This document shows positions 14,980-59,929 of a stretch of DNA of 64,000 nucleotides, piece after piece (the stretch's first letter is position 1; each line of letters begins with the position of its first letter). The stretch is from Escherichia phage Es2. The notes beneath the pieces were generated by a model that was not told where the DNA came from, searched no databases, and saw only the letters and a program-made list of their open reading frames with translations. The position numbers and the translations under genes are program-made. Location of the stretch: the sequence record OR515477.1; one strand, 5' to 3'.

Positions 14980-15121
14980 GCTAAAAAGCTAGACTGACAA
15001 CACAGAAGGCCTGGGTATGAAAATACTCGGGCCTTTTCTATCAGAAAATTTTATTTGCCTAATGACCGATAATAAAGTAGAATATTTCCTAAATCCTGAT
15101 AACTATAAAAAGGAAAACCAA

Positions 15122-17452
15122 ATGAGCCATCGTATTGAAAAAGTAATTAAACGTGACGGTACTGTAGAAGACTTTGCTCCTGGAAAAATCAATGGTTGGG
15201 CAGAGTATGGTTGCAAAACAGTTGATGTAAGTTGGTCAGCCATTACTATGGCTGCTCAAAAAACTCTACCTAAAGGGGTTGTAGATTCCGATACTCTGAT
15301 GGACGCATTAATTAAGGCTGCTGAAAGTCTTATCAAAGATAACCCAGCATATGATGTGCCGGCAAAGGAATTACGTCTTGCGCAAATGCGTAAACGTCTT
15401 TATGACTCTTTCGAACCGCCTTCTCTGCGCTTCTTCCACGACCATATGGTTAGCGTAGGTGCATGGGAAGATATGAGTGCATGGATTACCGATGAGCAAT
15501 TTGAAGCTCTGAATCAGGTTATCGACCATGATCGTGACCGTCTTTTTACTAGTGGTGGGCTGAAGCAGTTCTTTGATAAATATTCCCGTCGTAACATAGC
15601 CACTGGTGAAATTTACGAAACCCCGCAGTTTGCCTACATGGGTATGGCAATGGCGATGCTATCTCAACCTAACTGGACAATTCTAGATGCAATCGATCTC
15701 TACAATGCAATGTCGCTCCACAAAATCAACGTTCCTACGCCGCCACTGGTTGGTCTGCGCTCTAGTGACCGTGGATTTGCTAGTTGCTGCCTCGTGGATT
15801 CCACTGACACGTTGGATTCAATCGACACCGCCGAGCACATCGTCTTCAAGATGGTCGCAGCCAGAGCGGGAATCGGGTATCATCTTGAAAGCCGATCAAT
15901 TGCTGATCCGGTGCGAAATGGGGCATTCCCGCATTCCGGAAAACTGCCATATTATCGACACATTGACCGCTCAGTAAAGGCCAATACTCAGCAAACTCGT
16001 GGTGGTTCTGCTACAGTGTCTTATCCATACTTCGACCCTGAAATCATTCAGTTGATGCAGGTTAAGCAACAACGTGCTACAGACGAGAATAAAATCGACA
16101 AGATGGATTATTCTCTGAATTTCAATAATCTTTTGTTAAAACGTTATCTTAAAAACGAAGATATTACGCTAATGTCATACTTCTATGCTCCAGAAGTTCA
16201 TGAAGCGTTTTATAGTGATGACGAGGCTAAATTTGAAGAAATCTACGTGGCAGCGGAGAAACGTGTGGCATCTCTTACAAAGATCGACCACGAAGGAAAA
16301 ACAGTTCCAGCAGCTCCTAAAGTCTCTGCAAAAGAAATCCTAGATACTTGGCTACGTATCCGAATGGAAACAGGACGTATGTATGCTCATCACATCGGGG
16401 AATCTAATCGTCACGGTAACTTCCTTGATCCGATCCGTATGACAAACCTTTGTGTTGAAATTACTCAGCCTACACGCCCGTTCCATCATATTACAGAGCT
16501 GTACAAGACAAAAGAGCAGCTTGATCAAATGAAGCCGGAGGATATTGGTGAAGTATCCCTGTGTAACTTAGGTGGTGTTGTACTTGGACGCATGGAATCT
16601 CTGGCTGAGTGGGAAAAAACTTGCTATATTCTTCTGAAATTCGTTGATACCATCATTGAAATTCAGGATTATCCGTTCCCAACTATGGAATATACGGCTA
16701 AGAAACGTCGTAACGTTGGTATTGGTCTGATGAACGCAGCGGGTGCAATGGCAGCGGAAGGTTTGGCTTACGAAGGTATTGAAGCTCGTAACTGGATCCA
16801 CCGTGAGGCTGAAAAACTATCTTACTTCCTGCATAAAGCCTCTGTACGCCTGGCTAAGGAACAGGGTGCATGTGAGTGGTTTGATCGTACTAAACCATCT
16901 AAAGGAATTCTAGTAATCGATACGTACAAGAAAACTGTTGATGAACTGGTATCCGTAGGTCTAGAAATGGATTGGGAGTCTCTGCGTGCAGATATTCTGA
17001 AATACGGTATGCGTAACTCTGTTCTGACTGCTCAGATGCCAGGAGAAAGTTCTTCTGTTCTGTTAGGTGTTACTAACTCTATTGAACCGCCTCGTAAGAT
17101 TGTATCTATCAAAGGTAGTGCAGTGAATAAAGTAATTGCAATTGCCCCGGGTGCAACCGATTGGGAAACGTTAATGAGCTATAAACTGGCTTATGATGTA
17201 GATCGTATCGAGTGGATCAAATGGGTAGCAACTATGCAGAAATTCTTCAGTCAGTCTATCAGTACGAATATGTACTATGACTACACCAAGTTTGAGAATG
17301 AAATCATTCCTGGCCCAGTAGTAGTTCGTGATTTCATGACTGCTGTTAAGTATGGGTGGAAAACTTGGTATTATGCTAACTTCAACACTGCAAATGGTGG
17401 AGGTGCAGGAGAAGAAGCAGCAGGTTGTGCATCCGGTGGTTGTACTATTTAA
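15122..17452 (+). CDS. nrdA: ribonucleoside-diphosphate reductase alpha subunit (class Ia)
   Basis: N-terminal ATP-cone-like region, active-site TNLCVEI, C-terminal CASGGC tail; start at MSHRIEK with RBS. Confidence 0.8.
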   Translation: MSHRIEKVIKRDGTVEDFAPGKINGWAEYGCKTVDVSWSAITMAAQKTLPKGVVDSDTLMDALIKAAESLIKDNPAYDVPAKELRLAQMRKRLYDSFEPPSLRFFHDHMVSVGAWEDMSAWITDEQFEALNQVIDHDRDRLFTSGGLKQFFDKYSRRNIATGEIYETPQFAYMGMAMAMLSQPNWTILDAIDLYNAMSLHKINVPTPPLVGLRSSDRGFASCCLVDSTDTLDSIDTAEHIVFKMVAARAGIGYHLESRSIADPVRNGAFPHSGKLPYYRHIDRSVKANTQQTRGGSATVSYPYFDPEIIQLMQVKQQRATDENKIDKMDYSLNFNNLLLKRYLKNEDITLMSYFYAPEVHEAFYSDDEAKFEEIYVAAEKRVASLTKIDHEGKTVPAAPKVSAKEILDTWLRIRMETGRMYAHHIGESNRHGNFLDPIRMTNLCVEITQPTRPFHHITELYKTKEQLDQMKPEDIGEVSLCNLGGVVLGRMESLAEWEKTCYILLKFVDTIIEIQDYPFPTMEYTAKKRRNVGIGLMNAAGAMAAEGLAYEGIEARNWIHREAEKLSYFLHKASVRLAKEQGACEWFDRTKPSKGILVIDTYKKTVDELVSVGLEMDWESLRADILKYGMRNSVLTAQMPGESSSVLLGVTNSIEPPRKIVSIKGSAVNKVIAIAPGATDWETLMSYKLAYDVDRIEWIKWVATMQKFFSQSISTNMYYDYTKFENEIIPGPVVVRDFMTAVKYGWKTWYYANFNTANGGGAGEEAAGCASGGCTI

Positions 17453-17459
17453 TAAAAAT

Positions 17460-17487
17460 AAGGAGATCTTCGGGTCTCCTTTTTCTT
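17460..17487 (+). terminator. rho-independent terminator after nrdA
   Basis: AGGAGATC-TTCG-GGTCTCCT followed by TTTTCTTT. Confidence 0.65.
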
Positions 17488-17553
17488 TGAAATTTTACTT
17501 GCTAATCGCTACCAGATTTGCTATAATATCTCCATTAGTTAAGGAGATTAGTT

Positions 17554-18078
17554 TTGATAACACAAGATGAATTAAAAAGGGTTCTGGAATATAATCCAGA
17601 TGAAGGAACATTTACTTGGTTAGATAATCAAGAAGTACATAATAAAGTAAGAGGGCTACCTGCCGGTTGCTTAAAACCGCACTCAGTAGATCCTAACCGA
17701 AAAGATTTAGTAATACAAATCAACGGTAAGAAGTATCCTGCACAAAATATTGCTTTCCTGTATATGACAGGAAATTTACCCAAAATTATGGTTGATCATG
17801 TAGATGGAGATCCACTAAATTATAGGTGGAATAATCTAAGGGAAGCAGACTGGCAGTTAAATAGTCAAAATAGAAAAACCAGCAAAAACAATATATTGGG
17901 TACTAAGAATATTAGGAAGAAAGGGTCTGGGTTCCAAGTTAGAAAATCCATTAACGGAAAAGAATATGTGAAAACTCTTCCTACGCTAGAAGAAGCGATA
18001 GAATATCGAGATTCTTTAATCCTCTCTATAACCAAAGACCCAACACTACTTAGAAACACAGATAAACAGGAGAACTAA
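17554..18078 (+). CDS. HNH homing endonuclease-like protein
   Basis: DHVDGDPLNYRWNNLREA HNH motif; TTG start 7 nt after AAGGAGA; inserted between nrdA and nrdB. Confidence 0.6.
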   Translation: MITQDELKRVLEYNPDEGTFTWLDNQEVHNKVRGLPAGCLKPHSVDPNRKDLVIQINGKKYPAQNIAFLYMTGNLPKIMVDHVDGDPLNYRWNNLREADWQLNSQNRKTSKNNILGTKNIRKKGSGFQVRKSINGKEYVKTLPTLEEAIEYRDSLILSITKDPTLLRNTDKQEN

Positions 18079-19223
18079 TGACAACTTTACTTAACTTAAA
18101 CTGGGACCATACCAATAAAGATCTATTTCTTGGTGATTCTCTTGGTATTGCAGATTATGTACGAGTAGCCCATCCAGAGCTAGAAAGGCTGGCGTTATTA
18201 GCTCGCTCTCAATTTTGGACTGAAACTGAAATCAGTCTGGAAGCAGATAAGAAACAATGGCCTAATCTCCCACGTGAAATTCAGGAAATTACACTCCTGA
18301 ACTTAGCATGGCAAACCCAAACCGACTCCTTTATCAGTCGTGCCCCTGAAGCAGCTATTATGCCGCTTGTAAGTCGTCCAGAATTGGAAGGTATGCTCAA
18401 GCAGTGGAGCTACTTCGAAGATCTGCATAGTCGTGCTTATAGTAATATTATTCGTAATGTGCTGACTGATCCAGCAGAATTTATTGATTCTGTAACCAAA
18501 AACCAGGAAGCATTCGCACGTATCGCTGATTCTGTTGAACTATTCGATGAACTGTACCAGTTAGGTCAGTATTTCATCGCAGTACGCGATCATCGTGGCG
18601 ACAATACATACCCAGAAACTGAGTTCCCTGAAGTTAAACGTGAAACTCAGTCTAAACTATTAGACGCTTACTTTGCGATCTATGGTCTGGAAGCAATGCA
18701 GTTTTACGCATCCTTTGCATGTACCTTTGCATTAGCAGAGAACGATATTCTGCAAGGTATTGCTAAAAATCTGCAATTAATCGCTAAAGATGAAGCTCTG
18801 CACACTCAGATGTCCAAAGCAATCATCCAGATTATGTTTCAGCAATTTGACAAAGATCTGGTAGATGAAGCAGTGGCTAAAGCACCAGCACAGCTCCTGA
18901 AAACTCTGAAAACTGAAATTGAATGGGGTCATTTCATTTTCAAAGGTCGTAGTCTGATTGGCTTGAATGCAGAACTTCTAGAAGAATATCTGTACTTTGT
19001 GGGGCGTAATGCATTTATGCACATTGGTGTAGAATGGCCTAGTCATTTACCAGTAATCACCAAAAACCCTATTCCGTGGATCATGAACTGGTTGGATACC
19101 ACTTCTTTACAGCCTGCTCCACAAGAAATCCAGATTGGTGCAGCTTACCGTGTAGGTCAGGTAACTGAGACCTCTACTGATACTCTGAAAGATTTGGGCA
19201 ATGAATTTGGAGATTTCCTATGA
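18078..19223 (+). CDS. nrdB: ribonucleoside-diphosphate reductase beta subunit
   Basis: Di-iron ligand pattern (EDLHSRAY, DEALHTQM), size 381 aa, follows nrdA. Confidence 0.75.
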   Translation: MTTLLNLNWDHTNKDLFLGDSLGIADYVRVAHPELERLALLARSQFWTETEISLEADKKQWPNLPREIQEITLLNLAWQTQTDSFISRAPEAAIMPLVSRPELEGMLKQWSYFEDLHSRAYSNIIRNVLTDPAEFIDSVTKNQEAFARIADSVELFDELYQLGQYFIAVRDHRGDNTYPETEFPEVKRETQSKLLDAYFAIYGLEAMQFYASFACTFALAENDILQGIAKNLQLIAKDEALHTQMSKAIIQIMFQQFDKDLVDEAVAKAPAQLLKTLKTEIEWGHFIFKGRSLIGLNAELLEEYLYFVGRNAFMHIGVEWPSHLPVITKNPIPWIMNWLDTTSLQPAPQEIQIGAAYRVGQVTETSTDTLKDLGNEFGDFL

Positions 19224-26853: not shown

Positions 26854-26925
26854 GCCGTCCTAGTATAATTGGTATTATCAAGCCGTAACTGGTGGAAGAT
26901 GTAGGTTCGAATCCTACGGTCGGTA
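26854..26925 (+). tRNA. tRNA-like (isotype undetermined)
   Basis: T-arm GTAGG-TTCGAAT-CCTAC and acceptor GCCGTCC/GGTCGGT, but no clean anticodon arm. Confidence 0.35.
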
Positions 26926-29215: not shown

Positions 29216-29290
29216 GGTTCTCAAGCTCATATGGTATGAGCACCCGGCTCATAACCGGAAGGTACGTAGGTTCGAATCCTCGGGGAGCCA
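29216..29290 (+). tRNA. tRNA-Met/Ile2 (anticodon CAT)
   Basis: Acceptor GGTTCTC/GGGAGCC, anticodon loop CTCATAA, TTCGAAT T-loop (T-stem imperfect), CCA encoded. Confidence 0.6.
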
Positions 29291-30911: not shown

Positions 30912-31457
30912 ATGCACAATAAGTTAATAAATGAACTTCAAAAAAGACAAATAATAACAAAAACTAAGGAGTTTGATATAACTCCGGATTTAATAGTTGA
31001 ATGTTCGAAAGTTTACTTAGAGTTAAGTAACACAAAGGCTAAGAAAGTCTCTTTAGGAGATCTTAGATATAATGTTAAACTATTGTGCCTATCCTTAATT
31101 AAATTTAAGCAAGAAAATAAACTTCTCATAAAAGAAGGTTTCATATATTTTATAGCAAATAAGGCGTGGCCCAATTATTTTAAGATTGGTATGTCAGCTA
31201 ACCCAAAGAAACGTCTGGCTAACTATCAAACATATAGTCCTTTTAGGGATTATACAATGCTACACTGGTCTTTCTGGTTTGACAGAAAGGAAGGTGAAAA
31301 ATTTGTACATAGTCTCTACCAAGACAGAGATCATGAATGGGTTAGGCTGCCACAAAGAAAACTAAATAAAATATTTGAGCAAATAAATAAACTTTCTGGC
31401 CTAGAACACTTGGTACAGAAAGTTAATAGAGAAATAGTTAATGCACCTATCGTCTAA
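30912..31457 (+). CDS. GIY-YIG-like (T5orf172-type) domain protein
   Basis: FIYFIANKAWPNYFKIGMSANPKKRLANYQTYSP resembles the GIY-YIG/T5orf172 fold; 3' end overlaps tRNA-Glu. Confidence 0.5.
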   Translation: MHNKLINELQKRQIITKTKEFDITPDLIVECSKVYLELSNTKAKKVSLGDLRYNVKLLCLSLIKFKQENKLLIKEGFIYFIANKAWPNYFKIGMSANPKKRLANYQTYSPFRDYTMLHWSFWFDRKEGEKFVHSLYQDRDHEWVRLPQRKLNKIFEQINKLSGLEHLVQKVNREIVNAPIV

Positions 31458-31514
31458 TGGTTAGGACATCAGGATTTCAATCTGAGAATCGGAGTTCAAT
31501 TCTCCGTGGGTGTA
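31443..31514 (+). tRNA. tRNA-Glu (anticodon TTC)
   Basis: Acceptor GCACCTA/TGGGTGT, anticodon loop ATTTCAA, T-arm CGGAG-TTCAATT-CTCCG, CCA encoded. Confidence 0.7.
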
Positions 31515-31523
31515 CCAAATTCT

Positions 31524-35242: not shown

Positions 35243-35318
35243 GGGGAATGGGTCTGCATGGAGTGGACACCTCGCTTGCACCGAGGACATCAGAACGGTT
35301 CGATTCCGTTATTCTCCA
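35243..35318 (+). tRNA. tRNA-Ala (anticodon TGC)
   Basis: Acceptor GGGGAAT/ATTCTCC, anticodon stem-loop CCTCG-CTTGCAC-CGAGG, T-arm AACGG-TTCGATT-CCGTT, CCA encoded. Confidence 0.7.
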
Positions 35319-35326
35319 CCAAATAC

Positions 35327-59410: not shown

Positions 59411-59929
59411 ATGCCTAAATATAAACATATAGATTATGACCTTTTTAATAGTTACTTTTATTATGATGAAACATCGTTATCATTTTTACGCTGGCGAGAA
59501 GATCATGCCATCGCTGGTGGTTTAAATGGTAATTATTGGCAAGTTGAATTATTAGATAAAGGACAATTCAAAGTACATAGAATTATTTTTTGTATAATGA
59601 ATGGTGGTATAGATAGCGAGCTAATGATTGATCATATTGATCGTAACCCCCGTAATAATAACATTTGGAATCTTCGCGCGGTTGATAGTTCCCAGAATAA
59701 CTATAATAAGACTCCTAGTGAGTATGAAAACTATAAGCGTGCTAATGGTATCCCTAGAAACATTTACGTTAATAAAATTCGCCCCCGTGATAGTTTCGGG
59801 CGTGATTATTTAACTGCTCAAATTAAGAATCCTATTACTAACAAGCGTGTTAGTAAGTCTGGTTATGATTTACAAGAGTTATTATTATGGCTTGAAGCTA
59901 AAAAAGCTGAATTCGGAATTGTCAATTAA
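59411..59929 (+). CDS. HNH endonuclease
   Basis: DHIDRNPRNNNIWNLRAV HNH motif; AAGGAAAC RBS. Confidence 0.65.
   Translation: MPKYKHIDYDLFNSYFYYDETSLSFLRWREDHAIAGGLNGNYWQVELLDKGQFKVHRIIFCIMNGGIDSELMIDHIDRNPRNNNIWNLRAVDSSQNNYNKTPSEYENYKRANGIPRNIYVNKIRPRDSFGRDYLTAQIKNPITNKRVSKSGYDLQELLLWLEAKKAEFGIVN

What the first reader, a model, noticed from the sequence alone, without database searches (positions are those of the whole stretch)
17554..18078. HNH endonuclease gene wedged between nrdA and nrdB, starting at TTG
A 174-aa HNH-motif ORF (DHVDGDPLNYRWNNLREA) occupies the nrdA-nrdB intergenic position, a classic homing-endonuclease target context, and uses a TTG start 7 nt after AAGGAGA. A second HNH gene lies at 59411-59929 and a GIY-YIG-like T5orf172-type ORF at 30912-31457 inside the tRNA cluster. 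These are free-standing selfish endonucleases whose cleavage specificities are potentially useful.
Basis: partly seen in the sequence, partly recalled or inferred. Interest (0 to 1): 0.45.

Follow-up and report, generated by a model that had tools for sequence, protein, structure and literature searches.

The report
Known T5 HNH homing endonuclease gene
The ORF is real and intact, but it is the already-annotated phage T5 gene hegH (T5.095), a small selfish HNH nuclease gene sitting between the two ribonucleotide-reductase genes, so it is an ordinary, known mobile element rather than a discovery.

Summary
Window 17554-18078 (+) is a 174-aa TTG-initiated ORF between nrdA and nrdB of a T5-like phage. 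It is the ortholog (95% aa identity, same synteny) of T5 hegH / T5.095, annotated "putative H-N-H endonuclease P-TflVIII". The nrdA-nrdB position and the analogy to T4 mobE are already in the literature (PMC3326045).

The protein has an I-HmuI-like N-terminal region with an HNH_3 motif (D81, H82, N94, N103, N106 all intact) and a C-terminal AP2 DNA-binding domain. It is under strong purifying selection (dN/dS about 0.06).

Only 74 of about 554 T5-like phage records carry it. Most have an empty site 519 bp shorter, and others hold three different HNH_3 genes in the same gap.

The gene co-occurs with a 121-nt divergent tract at the 5' end of nrdB: 26% divergence against 5% background, 22 of 24 changed codons synonymous. 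This looks like a co-conversion footprint. Its right end maps to the position homologous to where T4 MobE, which shows no detectable sequence similarity to this protein, nicks T2 nrdB.

Nicking activity and the target site are inferred, not shown. Novelty: already known. Interest is low.

The parts
15017..17452 (+). nrdA (class Ia ribonucleotide reductase large subunit), upstream neighbour
   Evidence: ORF. Pfam Ribonuc_red_lgC E=2.7e-119. Annotated nrdA in T5.
17460..17489 (+). Intrinsic terminator after nrdA (9-bp stem AAGGAGATC/GGTCTCCTT plus T-run); identical in the HE-plus and empty-site phages aligned
   Evidence: Terminator scan. Invariant columns in alignment A1. Annotated as terminator in phage BB1.
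17499..17527 (+). Sigma-70-type early promoter (TTGCTA, 17 nt, TG-TATAAT). It drives nrdB in empty-site phages and hegH plus nrdB here
   Evidence: Promoter scan, 10/12 matches with extended -10 TG. Annotated promoter in T5 and S114. Invariant in A1.
17530..18077 (+). The inserted cassette. These 548 nt replace the 29-nt native nrdB 5'UTR of empty-site phages (net +519 bp). The left boundary is immediately after TATAATAT
   Evidence: Junction sequences. Gap of 548 nt versus 29 nt in 27 loci. Empty-site record spans are 1212 bp against a 1731-bp query.
17541..17547 (+). Shine-Dalgarno AAGGAGA for hegH, 6 nt before the TTG
   Evidence: Sequence read directly.
17554..18078 (+). hegH ortholog: 174-aa HNH_3 plus AP2 free-standing endonuclease, TTG start, TAA stop overlapping the nrdB ATG by one base
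   Evidence: It is 95% identical to T5 hegH/T5.095. dN/dS about 0.06.
17794..17871 (+). HNH (beta-beta-alpha-metal) catalytic motif, residues 81-106: D81 H82 ... N94 ... N103 ... N106
   Evidence: Pfam HNH_3 covers residues 62-98. D81, H82, N103 and N106 are invariant and N94 is nearly invariant in A2. Profile alignment to I-HmuI 1U3E, E=1.4e-9. AF2 strands 79-82 and 95-98, helix 100-105.
17896..18033 (+). C-terminal AP2-type DNA-binding domain, about residues 115-160 (three strands plus a helix)
   Evidence: The A2 profile hits plant AP2/ERF structures: 7wq5 at 2e-6, 7et4 at 9e-4, 5wx9, 1gcc. AF2 strands 120-123, 126-133, 136-142 and helix 145-160, pLDDT about 90. Foldseek lists AP2 domain 3igm_B, but only as a weak hit (E=0.74).
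18068..18072 (+). nrdB ribosome-binding site (AGGAG) embedded in the last codons of hegH
   Evidence: Sequence read directly. The equivalent GGAG is kept in the C- and D-type cassettes.
18078..19223 (+). nrdB (RNR small subunit), downstream neighbour and inferred target gene
18083..18203 (+). hegH-linked divergent tract in nrdB (nt 6-126). There are 31 substitutions versus empty-site phage ECOP18; 22 of 24 changed codons are synonymous in that comparison. No differences follow in the next 170 nt or so
   Evidence: Tract divergence is 26.4% against 5.1% background. 78 records carry the tract and 74 carry hegH.
59411..59929 (+). Second, distantly related HNH_3 gene (26% identical to hegH over 97 aa), also sporadic among relatives
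   Evidence: Pfam E=1.4e-12. BLASTP. The full region is present in 31 of 531 records.
30912..31457 (+). T5orf172/MUG113 (GIY-YIG-related) ORF between tRNA-Tyr and tRNA-Glu
   Evidence: Pfam. tRNAs. The full region is present in 23 of 461 records.

Best explanation
**What it is.** Window 17554-18078 encodes the T5 hegH-type free-standing homing endonuclease. It is a monomeric I-HmuI-like HNH (His-Me finger group 2, Pfam HNH_3) nuclease fused to a C-terminal AP2 DNA-binding domain.

**Shown.**
- The gene sits as a 548-nt cassette directly after the -10 box of the early promoter that drives nrdB in HE-less relatives.
- The cassette replaced the native 29-nt nrdB leader. It carries its own SD plus a weak TTG start, and it supplies a new nrdB RBS in its last codons, with the stop overlapping the nrdB ATG. 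hegH and nrdB are therefore expected to be co-transcribed.
- The catalytic residues are intact and the protein is under strong purifying selection.
- The gene is present in only about 13% of T5-like phages, at one fixed site.
- It is tightly linked to a 121-nt foreign-looking tract at the 5' end of nrdB.

**Inferred.**
- In mixed infections the enzyme recognises the HE-less allele within the first 130-210 nt or so of nrdB. The best candidate is the cluster of changes at nt 117-126, next to the conserved 'RSQFW' codons.
- It nicks one strand, as I-HmuI and T4 MobE do.
- Replication turns the nick into a break. Recombinational repair from the HE-plus genome then copies hegH together with the nrdB segment lying between the gene and the cut.
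For: **Orthology.** The gene is orthologous and syntenic with T5 hegH/T5.095 'putative H-N-H endonuclease P-TflVIII'. The DT57C annotation uses the name 'nicking homing endonuclease F-TflVIII'.

**Domains.**
- Pfam HNH_3 at E=5.5e-9.
- A 34-sequence profile hits I-HmuI 1U3E at E=1.4e-9 and AP2/ERF domains down to 2e-6.
- Invariant D81, H82, N103, N106 and nearly invariant N94.
- AF2 model with pLDDT 89.8, whose best PDB match is 1u3e at probability 1.00.

**Selection.** dN/dS is about 0.06, and the TTG start and an intact ORF are kept in all 9 copies.

**Polymorphism.**
- 74 of about 554 records carry this allele.
- Empty sites are 519 bp shorter, with the boundary exactly after TATAATAT.
- Several of the closest backbone relatives of the window over 25 kb (IME178, AZ23, EC148) are empty at this site.

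**Linked tract.**
- Against ECOP18 there are 31 differences in nrdB nt 6-126. There is 1 difference in the 120 nt left of the insertion point and none in nrdB nt 127-299.
- Tract divergence is 26.4% against 5.1% background.
- 7 of 7 hegH-plus phages carry the tract, against 1 of 27 hegH-minus phages (Fisher p=1.5e-6).
- 78 records carry the tract and 74 carry hegH.

**Precedent.** T4 MobE, an HNH gene in the same nrdA-nrdB position, nicks the non-coding strand of T2 nrdB at nt 122-126, and recombination points lie within the first 189 nt (PMC2790892). By NrdB alignment this corresponds to window nrdB nt 119-123, the right edge of the hegH-linked tract.
Against: - No cleavage or inheritance data for this enzyme could be found. 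The 'F-'/'nicking' label in one GenBank annotation is unsupported by any paper I could read.
- nrdB nt 127-210 is almost invariant in Tequintavirus, so the true right end of the linked tract could lie anywhere between nt 126 and about 210.
- Phage SP01 has the tract with a native nrdB leader and no hegH. The tract can therefore exist without the gene.
- I-HmuI cuts both intron-plus and intron-minus DNA (own knowledge), so target-site immunity need not explain the tract.
- The phage records are phylogenetically non-independent and include duplicate GenBank/RefSeq entries. The counts and the Fisher p-value overstate the number of independent events.
Confidence: 0.75

Rival explanations
1. Domesticated or beneficial nuclease. 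The gene is kept because it helps the phage, rather than because it homes. It might exclude competing T5-like genomes in co-infection, take part in phage DNA metabolism, or make some of the strand-specific nicks typical of T5 DNA.
For: Purifying selection is very strong (dN/dS about 0.06 at dS up to 0.58). Expression comes from a strong early promoter shared with nrdB. T5-like genomes carry site-specific single-strand nicks (PMC10644984), and I-HmuI-like enzymes are nickases.
Against: The gene is absent from about 87% of T5-like phages, including several of the window's closest backbone relatives. It therefore cannot provide a core function. Selection for continued homing also gives a low dN/dS. 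Marker exclusion and homing are two faces of the same activity.
Confidence: 0.12
2. Immobile passenger. The HE gene was inserted once. Its patchy distribution and the nrdB tract reflect ordinary homologous recombination mosaicism among T5-like phages, not endonuclease-driven gene conversion.
For: T5-like genomes are highly mosaic; the best hit differs for every window region. SP01 carries the tract without hegH. The tract boundary coincides with the start of a nearly invariant stretch where boundaries cannot be resolved.
Against: Divergence jumps from about 1% to 26% and back to 0% exactly around the cassette. The linkage is 7/7 against 1/27. Catalytic residues are conserved. Four different HNH_3 genes populate the same gap, which indicates an actively invaded site. 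A direct experimental precedent exists in T4.
Confidence: 0.1
3. Catalytically dead relic, or a pure DNA-binding regulator. The AP2 domain would bind near the nrdB start and modulate nrd expression.
For: AP2 domains act as transcription-factor DNA-binding modules elsewhere (one search hits). The gene lies between a promoter and nrdB.
Against: All HNH residues (D81, H82, N94, N103, N106) are intact. Across all nine copies examined, substitutions in the HNH-motif region (residues 81-106) spare D81, H82, N94, N103 and N106.
Confidence: 0.03

Closest known systems
Phage T5 hegH (T5.095, YP_006923.1, 'putative H-N-H endonuclease P-TflVIII'; called 'F-TflVIII' in the DT57C annotation)
   Same: It has the same length (174 aa), the same TTG start and the same position between the promoter and nrdB. 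It is 95% identical in amino acids, with the AP2 domain 100% identical. This is the same gene in another T5-like phage.
   Different: There are eight substitutions, all in the N-terminal/HNH half. dS is about 0.31. The window's nrdA C-terminus and its backbone are mosaic relative to T5.
T4 MobE (free-standing HNH endonuclease between nrdA and nrdB; Wilson & Edgell 2009, PMC2790892)
   Same: It occupies the same intergenic niche and is a free-standing HNH enzyme. Experimentally it nicks the 5' region of nrdB (T2 nt 122-126) and drives co-conversion of flanking DNA. The hegH-linked tract ends at the homologous nrdB position.
   Different: There is no detectable sequence similarity (BLASTP E=12). 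MobE belongs to Pfam HNH PF01844 / His-Me group 1, and hegH to HNH_3 / group 2. MobE is promoterless and co-transcribed with nrdA. hegH sits downstream of its own promoter and is coupled to nrdB. hegH activity is untested.
I-HmuI (SPO1 intron-encoded HNH nickase, PDB 1U3E)
   Same: It is the closest solved structure by profile (E=1.4e-9) and by fold (Foldseek probability 1.00). It has the same N-terminal beta-domain plus HNH with the D-H...N...N...N motif, and it is a monomeric single-active-site enzyme.
   Different: I-HmuI is intron-encoded and uses a C-terminal helix-turn-helix domain (own knowledge). hegH is free-standing and has an AP2 domain instead. Sequence identity is 16% and the global TM-score only 0.39.
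T5 F-TflI, F-TflII, F-TflIV (Akulenko et al. 2004, PMID 15456135) in the T5 tRNA region
   Same: They are site-specific HNH endonucleases of the same phage group and are free-standing.
   Different: They sit at different loci in the tRNA cluster. F-TflIV is classified in His-Me group 1. They were characterised experimentally, whereas hegH was only predicted (the 'P-' prefix). I did not compare them at sequence level here.
HNH-AP2 endonucleases (Magnani et al. 2004, Plant Cell 16:2265; His-Me group 2, PMC5714182)
   Same: They have the same two-module architecture of HNH_3 plus AP2. The family is very large: 29,780 cluster representatives at E<=1e-3.
   Different: Nothing distinguishes hegH from the family in architecture. 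Only 6 representatives score below 1e-30, so this particular lineage is narrow.

Membership tests
T5 hegH / P-TflVIII ortholog group | High sequence identity to T5.095 over full length | tested here: met
   95% aa identity over 174/174 residues. 94.2% nt identity over the 4.3-kb locus.
T5 hegH / P-TflVIII ortholog group | Same genomic position (promoter - hegH - nrdB, stop overlapping the nrdB ATG) | tested here: met
   T5 annotation. Alignment A1. Identical junctions.
HNH_3 / I-HmuI-like His-Me finger nucleases (group 2) | beta-beta-alpha-metal motif with the general-base His preceded by Asp, plus structural and metal-binding Asn residues | tested here: met
   Pfam HNH_3 at 36 bits against a cut-off of 24.8. 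D81, H82, N103 and N106 are invariant and N94 nearly invariant. They align to I-HmuI D74/H75/N87/N96/N99 (residue numbering by my own counting).
HNH_3 / I-HmuI-like His-Me finger nucleases (group 2) | Fold similarity to I-HmuI | tested here: met
   AF2 model with pLDDT 89.8. Foldseek top PDB hit is 1u3e_M, probability 1.00, E=2.3e-3. The global TM-score is only 0.39, which I attribute to a different domain arrangement and C-terminal domain.
HNH_3 / I-HmuI-like His-Me finger nucleases (group 2) | Metal-dependent, site-specific single-strand nicking | not testable with these tools
   This needs purified protein or in vivo nick mapping. No paper on this enzyme was found.
HNH-AP2 endonucleases | C-terminal AP2 domain (three-stranded sheet packed on a helix) | tested here: met
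   Profile hits to AP2/ERF structures 7wq5 (2e-6), 7et4 (9e-4), 5wx9, 1gcc. The model has strands 120-123, 126-133, 136-142 and helix 145-160. Pfam AP2 was not hit by the single sequence.
Free-standing homing endonuclease gene (functional class) | Own ORF outside any intron or intein, in an intergenic position between conserved genes | tested here: met
Free-standing homing endonuclease gene (functional class) | Sporadic presence/absence at a fixed site among close relatives, incongruent with the backbone | tested here: met
   74 of about 554 records carry it. Empty sites have a precise boundary. Several of the nearest 25-kb relatives are empty at this site.
Free-standing homing endonuclease gene (functional class) | Flanking co-conversion tract linked to the gene | tested here: met
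   nrdB nt 6-126 shows 26.4% divergence against 5.1% background, and 7/7 against 1/27 linkage. One exception is SP01.
Free-standing homing endonuclease gene (functional class) | Cleaves the HE-less allele and is inherited above Mendelian frequency in crosses | not testable with these tools
   This requires co-infection experiments.
T4 Mob (MobE) family | Sequence homology to MobE / Pfam HNH PF01844 | tested here: not met
   BLASTP E=12. MobE hits PF01844 and hegH hits PF13392. They fall in different His-Me groups.
T4 Mob (MobE) family | Target in the 5' region of nrdB | tested here: inconclusive
   This is only inferred from where the linked tract ends (window nrdB nt 117-126, against the MobE nick equivalent at nt 119-123).

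The most novel reading that the evidence does not exclude
hegH and T4 MobE have no detectable sequence similarity and belong to different His-Me finger groups. Yet they may have independently colonised the same nrdA-nrdB gap in unrelated phage families and converged on nicking the same few codons of nrdB, just upstream of the conserved F-W radical-transfer region. In that case the 121-nt tract would mark the obligatory segment between gene and cut. The T5-like nrdA-nrdB gap, with four rival HNH_3 lineages plus empty and 'resistant-empty' (SP01) alleles, would then be a natural system for studying competition between homing endonucleases for one target.
Probability: 0.25. Interest if true: 0.45.

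Novelty: already known. Interest (0 to 1): 0.15.

Why it matters
The practical value is limited. The gene has been annotated since the T5 genome was published, and its position was noted in print in 2012.

What this check adds is a population-level footprint: a precise insertion boundary, and a 121-nt linked nrdB tract that ends where MobE nicks its target. This gives a concrete, cheap prediction for the still-uncharacterised target site of the enzyme. It also shows that the locus holds several competing endonuclease lineages.

If the prediction were confirmed, it would be a neat example of convergent targeting of ribonucleotide reductase by selfish nucleases. It might also yield another sequence-specific nickase. 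It would not change how phage or homing-endonuclease biology is understood.

Tried and rejected
- **Word-indexed homolog search.** It found only 6 proteins. I used the exhaustive HMMER search instead.
- **Single-sequence phmmer against the PDB.** It gave only noise. A 34-sequence profile was needed to reach I-HmuI and AP2.
- **Single-sequence Pfam at E<=10.** It did not detect AP2.
- **Two IMG/VR scans, by NrdB protein and by the invariant terminator-promoter string.** They returned only 27 and 17 loci, all full-length (>100 kb) contigs, several with lengths identical to GenBank isolate records. No independent metagenomic sample was gained.
- **MAFFT of HE-plus against empty loci.** It mis-aligned the empty nrdB start to the hegH start. 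I set the boundaries by hand and by ungapped comparison.
- **Literature searches for TflVIII, hegH, T5.095.** They found only annotation-level mentions and no biochemistry.
- **Homology between hegH and MobE.** Considered and rejected.
- **AP2 domains of the four HE lineages as evidence for a shared target.** The AP2 domains are more similar to each other than the catalytic halves are (44-60% against 34-38% for lineages A, B and C). However, lineage D does not follow this pattern, so I draw no conclusion.
- **Rfam.** It found nothing but tRNAs in the window.
- **Minus-strand ORFs inside the gene** (17628-17783 and 17865-18059; one is annotated in DT57C under the P-TflVIII name). I treat these as annotation artefacts; they were not tested further.

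Full report

Yes. The ORF listing returns a 174-aa ORF at 17554-18078 on the + strand, starting with TTG. The sequence shows AAGGAGA at 17541-17547, six bases, then TTG. The TAA stop (18076-18078) shares its last base with the ATG of the next gene.

The flanking ORFs are the class Ia ribonucleotide reductase large subunit (15017-17452) and small subunit (18078-19223). The ORF itself matches Pfam HNH_3 at E=5.5e-9, above the curated cut-off.

No other start is possible. TTG is the first start codon after the upstream stop, and the next in-frame Met is residue 71.

**2. What is the window, and is the gene known?**

The 4.3-kb nrdA-nrdB region matches 526 phage records, essentially all T5-like (Demerecviridae). 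The best match is 96.9% (Salmonella phage SA001), and T5 itself matches at 94.2%.

In T5 the same ORF is annotated hegH, locus T5.095, 'putative H-N-H-endonuclease P-TflVIII'. It has the same length and start, and an annotated promoter lies directly upstream. The DT57C annotation calls it 'nicking homing endonuclease F-TflVIII'.

The AKFV33 genome paper (PMC3326045) discusses AKFV33 ORF96 as the counterpart of T5 P-TflVIII lying between nrdA and nrdB. It also says that the nrdA-nrdB region is a homing-endonuclease hotspot by analogy with T4 mobE. Another paper lists P-TflVIII among genes present in some T5-like phages and absent in others.

I found no paper describing its activity. The gene is therefore known and annotated, but apparently uncharacterised.

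**3. The protein.**

An exhaustive HMMER search finds a very large family: 29,780 cluster representatives at E<=1e-3. Only 6 score below 1e-30.

In a 34-sequence alignment D81, H82, N103 and N106 are invariant and N94 is nearly invariant. A profile from that alignment hits the HNH nickase I-HmuI (1U3E, E=1.4e-9) over the N-terminal two-thirds. It hits plant AP2/ERF DNA-binding domains (7wq5 at 2e-6, 7et4, 5wx9, 1gcc) over residues ~110-160. In that alignment D81/H82/N94/N103/N106 fall on I-HmuI D74/H75/N87/N96/N99.

The AlphaFold model is confident (pLDDT 89.8). It shows the expected beta-beta-alpha element (strands 79-82 and 95-98, helix 100-105) and a three-strand-plus-helix AP2 fold. Its best PDB match is 1u3e at probability 1.00.

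This HNH_3 plus AP2 architecture is a described one, group 2 of the His-Me finger classification (PMC5714182).

The gene is also under strong purifying selection. dN/dS is about 0.06 at dS 0.28-0.58 between the window copy and six other copies. The ORF is intact and the TTG start conserved in all nine copies inspected. Some copies end three codons early through CAG>TAG.

**4. Distribution and anatomy of the insertion.**

A 1731-nt query spanning the nrdA 3' end, hegH and the nrdB 5' end matches 554 records, but only 74 cover it fully. Most hits are two pieces spanning 1212 bp, which is 519 bp shorter. tblastn with the protein finds the same number, 74 records at >=80% identity.

Junction sequences show the following.
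- **Shared region.** The nrdA terminator (17460-17489) and the sigma-70 promoter (17499-17527, TTGCTA-17-TGnTATAAT) are identical in hegH-carrying and empty-site phages.
- **Empty sites.** A 29-nt leader follows, then the nrdB ATG.
- **Window.** 548 nt (17530-18077) replace that leader.

The cassette brings its own SD and TTG. It also provides a new AGGAG for nrdB within its last codons.

At least three other HNH_3 genes occupy the same gap in other T5-like phages.
- Types C (Sds2) and D (L030) sit at exactly the same point after TATAATAT.
- Type B (SP01, EPS7) lies upstream of the promoter with a different terminator.
- They are 32-44% identical to hegH and to each other.

Among the closest relatives of the window over its first 25 kb are both hegH-carrying phages (phB7) and phages with an empty site here (IME178, AZ23, EC148).

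**5. A linked tract in nrdB.**

I compared the window with the empty-site phage ECOP18.

| Region | Differences |
|---|---|
| 120 nt left of the insertion point | 1 |
| 810 nt left of the insertion point | about 17 |
| nrdB nt 6-126 | 31 |
| nrdB nt 127-299 | 0 |
| Remainder of nrdB compared | about 2% |

Against 18 empty-site phages the tract diverges by 26.4% (range 24.8-30.6%), compared with 5.1% for the rest of nrdB. In the comparison with ECOP18, 22 of 24 changed codons are synonymous. The exceptions are K14 against A and A42 against Q, plus one ECOP18-private change.

All seven distinct hegH-carrying phages I hold share this tract, against one of 27 hegH-less phages (Fisher p=1.5e-6). 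In the whole collection 78 records contain the tract, against 74 with hegH. These counts include duplicated and related records, so they overstate independence.

The exception is SP01: type B endonuclease, native nrdB leader, hegH-type tract. I cannot explain this. It could be a resistant allele left after loss or displacement of hegH, or the ancestral allele into which hegH first inserted.

nrdB nt 127-210 is nearly invariant in these phages. The true right end of the linked block therefore lies somewhere between nt 126 and about 210.

**6. Most likely mechanism.**

The pattern is that of a free-standing homing endonuclease. There is a precise insertion, patchy distribution, and a foreign-looking flank on one side only, with identical sequence beyond it. 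The segment between the endonuclease gene and its cut site must be co-converted at every homing event. The persistent block therefore points to a target in the 5' part of nrdB.

T4 MobE offers a direct experimental precedent. It lies between nrdA and nrdB, makes a strand-specific nick at nt 122-126 of T2 nrdB, and yields recombination junctions within the first 189 nt (PMC2790892).

Aligning the two NrdB proteins (T5-like codon n = T4 codon n+1) puts the MobE nick at window nrdB nt ~119-123. This is inside the dense terminal cluster of the hegH tract (differences at nt 117, 118, 121, 123-126).

MobE and HegH show no detectable similarity (BLASTP E=12). They fall in different Pfam families and different His-Me groups. 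If the target inference is right, this is convergence, not common descent.

- **Shown:** architecture, intact active site, selection, insertion boundaries, linkage.
- **Inferred:** nicking rather than double-strand cutting, the target location, and actual mobility.

**7. Rivals.**

- **A beneficial or domesticated role.** Competitor exclusion or T5 nick formation would fit the strong selection and the early promoter. However, the gene is absent from about 87% of relatives.
- **Pure recombination mosaicism without endonuclease involvement.** This fits the general mosaicism and the SP01 exception. It fits poorly with the sharp 1% / 26% / 0% divergence profile centred on the cassette, and with four nuclease lineages crowding one gap.
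- **A dead relic or mere AP2 regulator.** This is contradicted by the intact, conserved catalytic residues.

**8.

- **59411-59929.** This is an HNH_3 protein (E=1.4e-12), only 26% identical to HegH. The full region occurs in 31 of 531 records. In several listed records it lies about 3-6.5 kb from a record end, and some records match twice, which suggests the terminal-repeat region.
- **30912-31457.** This is a T5orf172/MUG113 protein between tRNA-Tyr and tRNA-Glu, overlapping the latter by 15 nt. The full region occurs in 23 of 461 records. Some relatives carry an HNH gene in that gap instead.

**9. Verdict.**

Novelty is 'already known' and interest is low (0.15). The only new element is the inferred target region and its coincidence with the MobE nick site. 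That is a testable hypothesis of modest interest.

Noticed in passing
L003:622-3864 (Shigella phage SHSML-45 nrdA); the insertion point would fall near window 16000: SHSML-45, Shivani, vB_SLGBLB0002 and RUS_R2 match the 4.3-kb query in two pieces with a span 912 bp longer than the window. In SHSML-45, the only one inspected, the extra DNA is an in-frame insertion in nrdA (1080 aa against 776 aa for the equivalent annotated start). It splits the RNR barrel domain into two Pfam stretches and looks like an intein. No Pfam intein family was hit at E<=0.01. The window lacks it.
   Followed up: partly
L007:862-1344, L008:857-1339, L009:885-1382, L030:1476-1994 (equivalent to window 17453-18077): Four different HNH_3 endonuclease lineages (32-44% identical to one another) occupy the nrdA-nrdB gap in T5-like phages. 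Three sit at exactly the same point after the promoter -10 box. One sits upstream of the promoter with its own terminator.
   Followed up: partly
L007 / L035 (Salmonella phage SP01), equivalent to window 17453-18203: SP01 combines the type-B endonuclease, the native 29-nt nrdB leader and the hegH-type nrdB tract (nt 6-126). It is the only hegH-less genome in my set that carries the tract. It may be a resistant allele after hegH loss or displacement, or the ancestral allele. This is unexplained.
   Followed up: partly
window 59411-59929: The second HNH_3 gene appears to lie in the terminal-repeat (pre-early) region. In several listed records the match lies about 3-6.5 kb from a record end, and some records match twice. 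The complete region is present in only 31 of 531 matching records.
   Followed up: partly
window 30912-31457: The T5orf172 ORF overlaps the 5' end of tRNA-Glu (31443-31517) by 15 nt. The same tRNA-Tyr/tRNA-Glu gap holds an HNH endonuclease gene in other phages (SUT_E1620, UTK0009) and is empty in most.
   Followed up: partly
window 26854-26925 and 29216-29290: Rfam's tRNA model scores two further tRNA-like sequences (35.5 and 40.3 bits) that ARAGORN did not call. ARAGORN's tRNA-Ala (35243-35321) is in turn missing from the Rfam list.
   Followed up: no
window 18067-18078 (codon 172 of hegH): In DT57C, DT571/2, NR01 and phiAPCEc03, codon 172 is TAG instead of CAG. The protein therefore ends three residues early, and the stop no longer overlaps the nrdB ATG. 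The AGGAG for nrdB is kept.
   Followed up: yes
window 15017-15121: The nrdA start is annotated differently among relatives. T5 uses the upstream ATG (equivalent to window 15017). DT57C, SHSML-45 and BB1 use an ATG 105 nt downstream (MSHRIEK...). I did not assess which is used.
   Followed up: no
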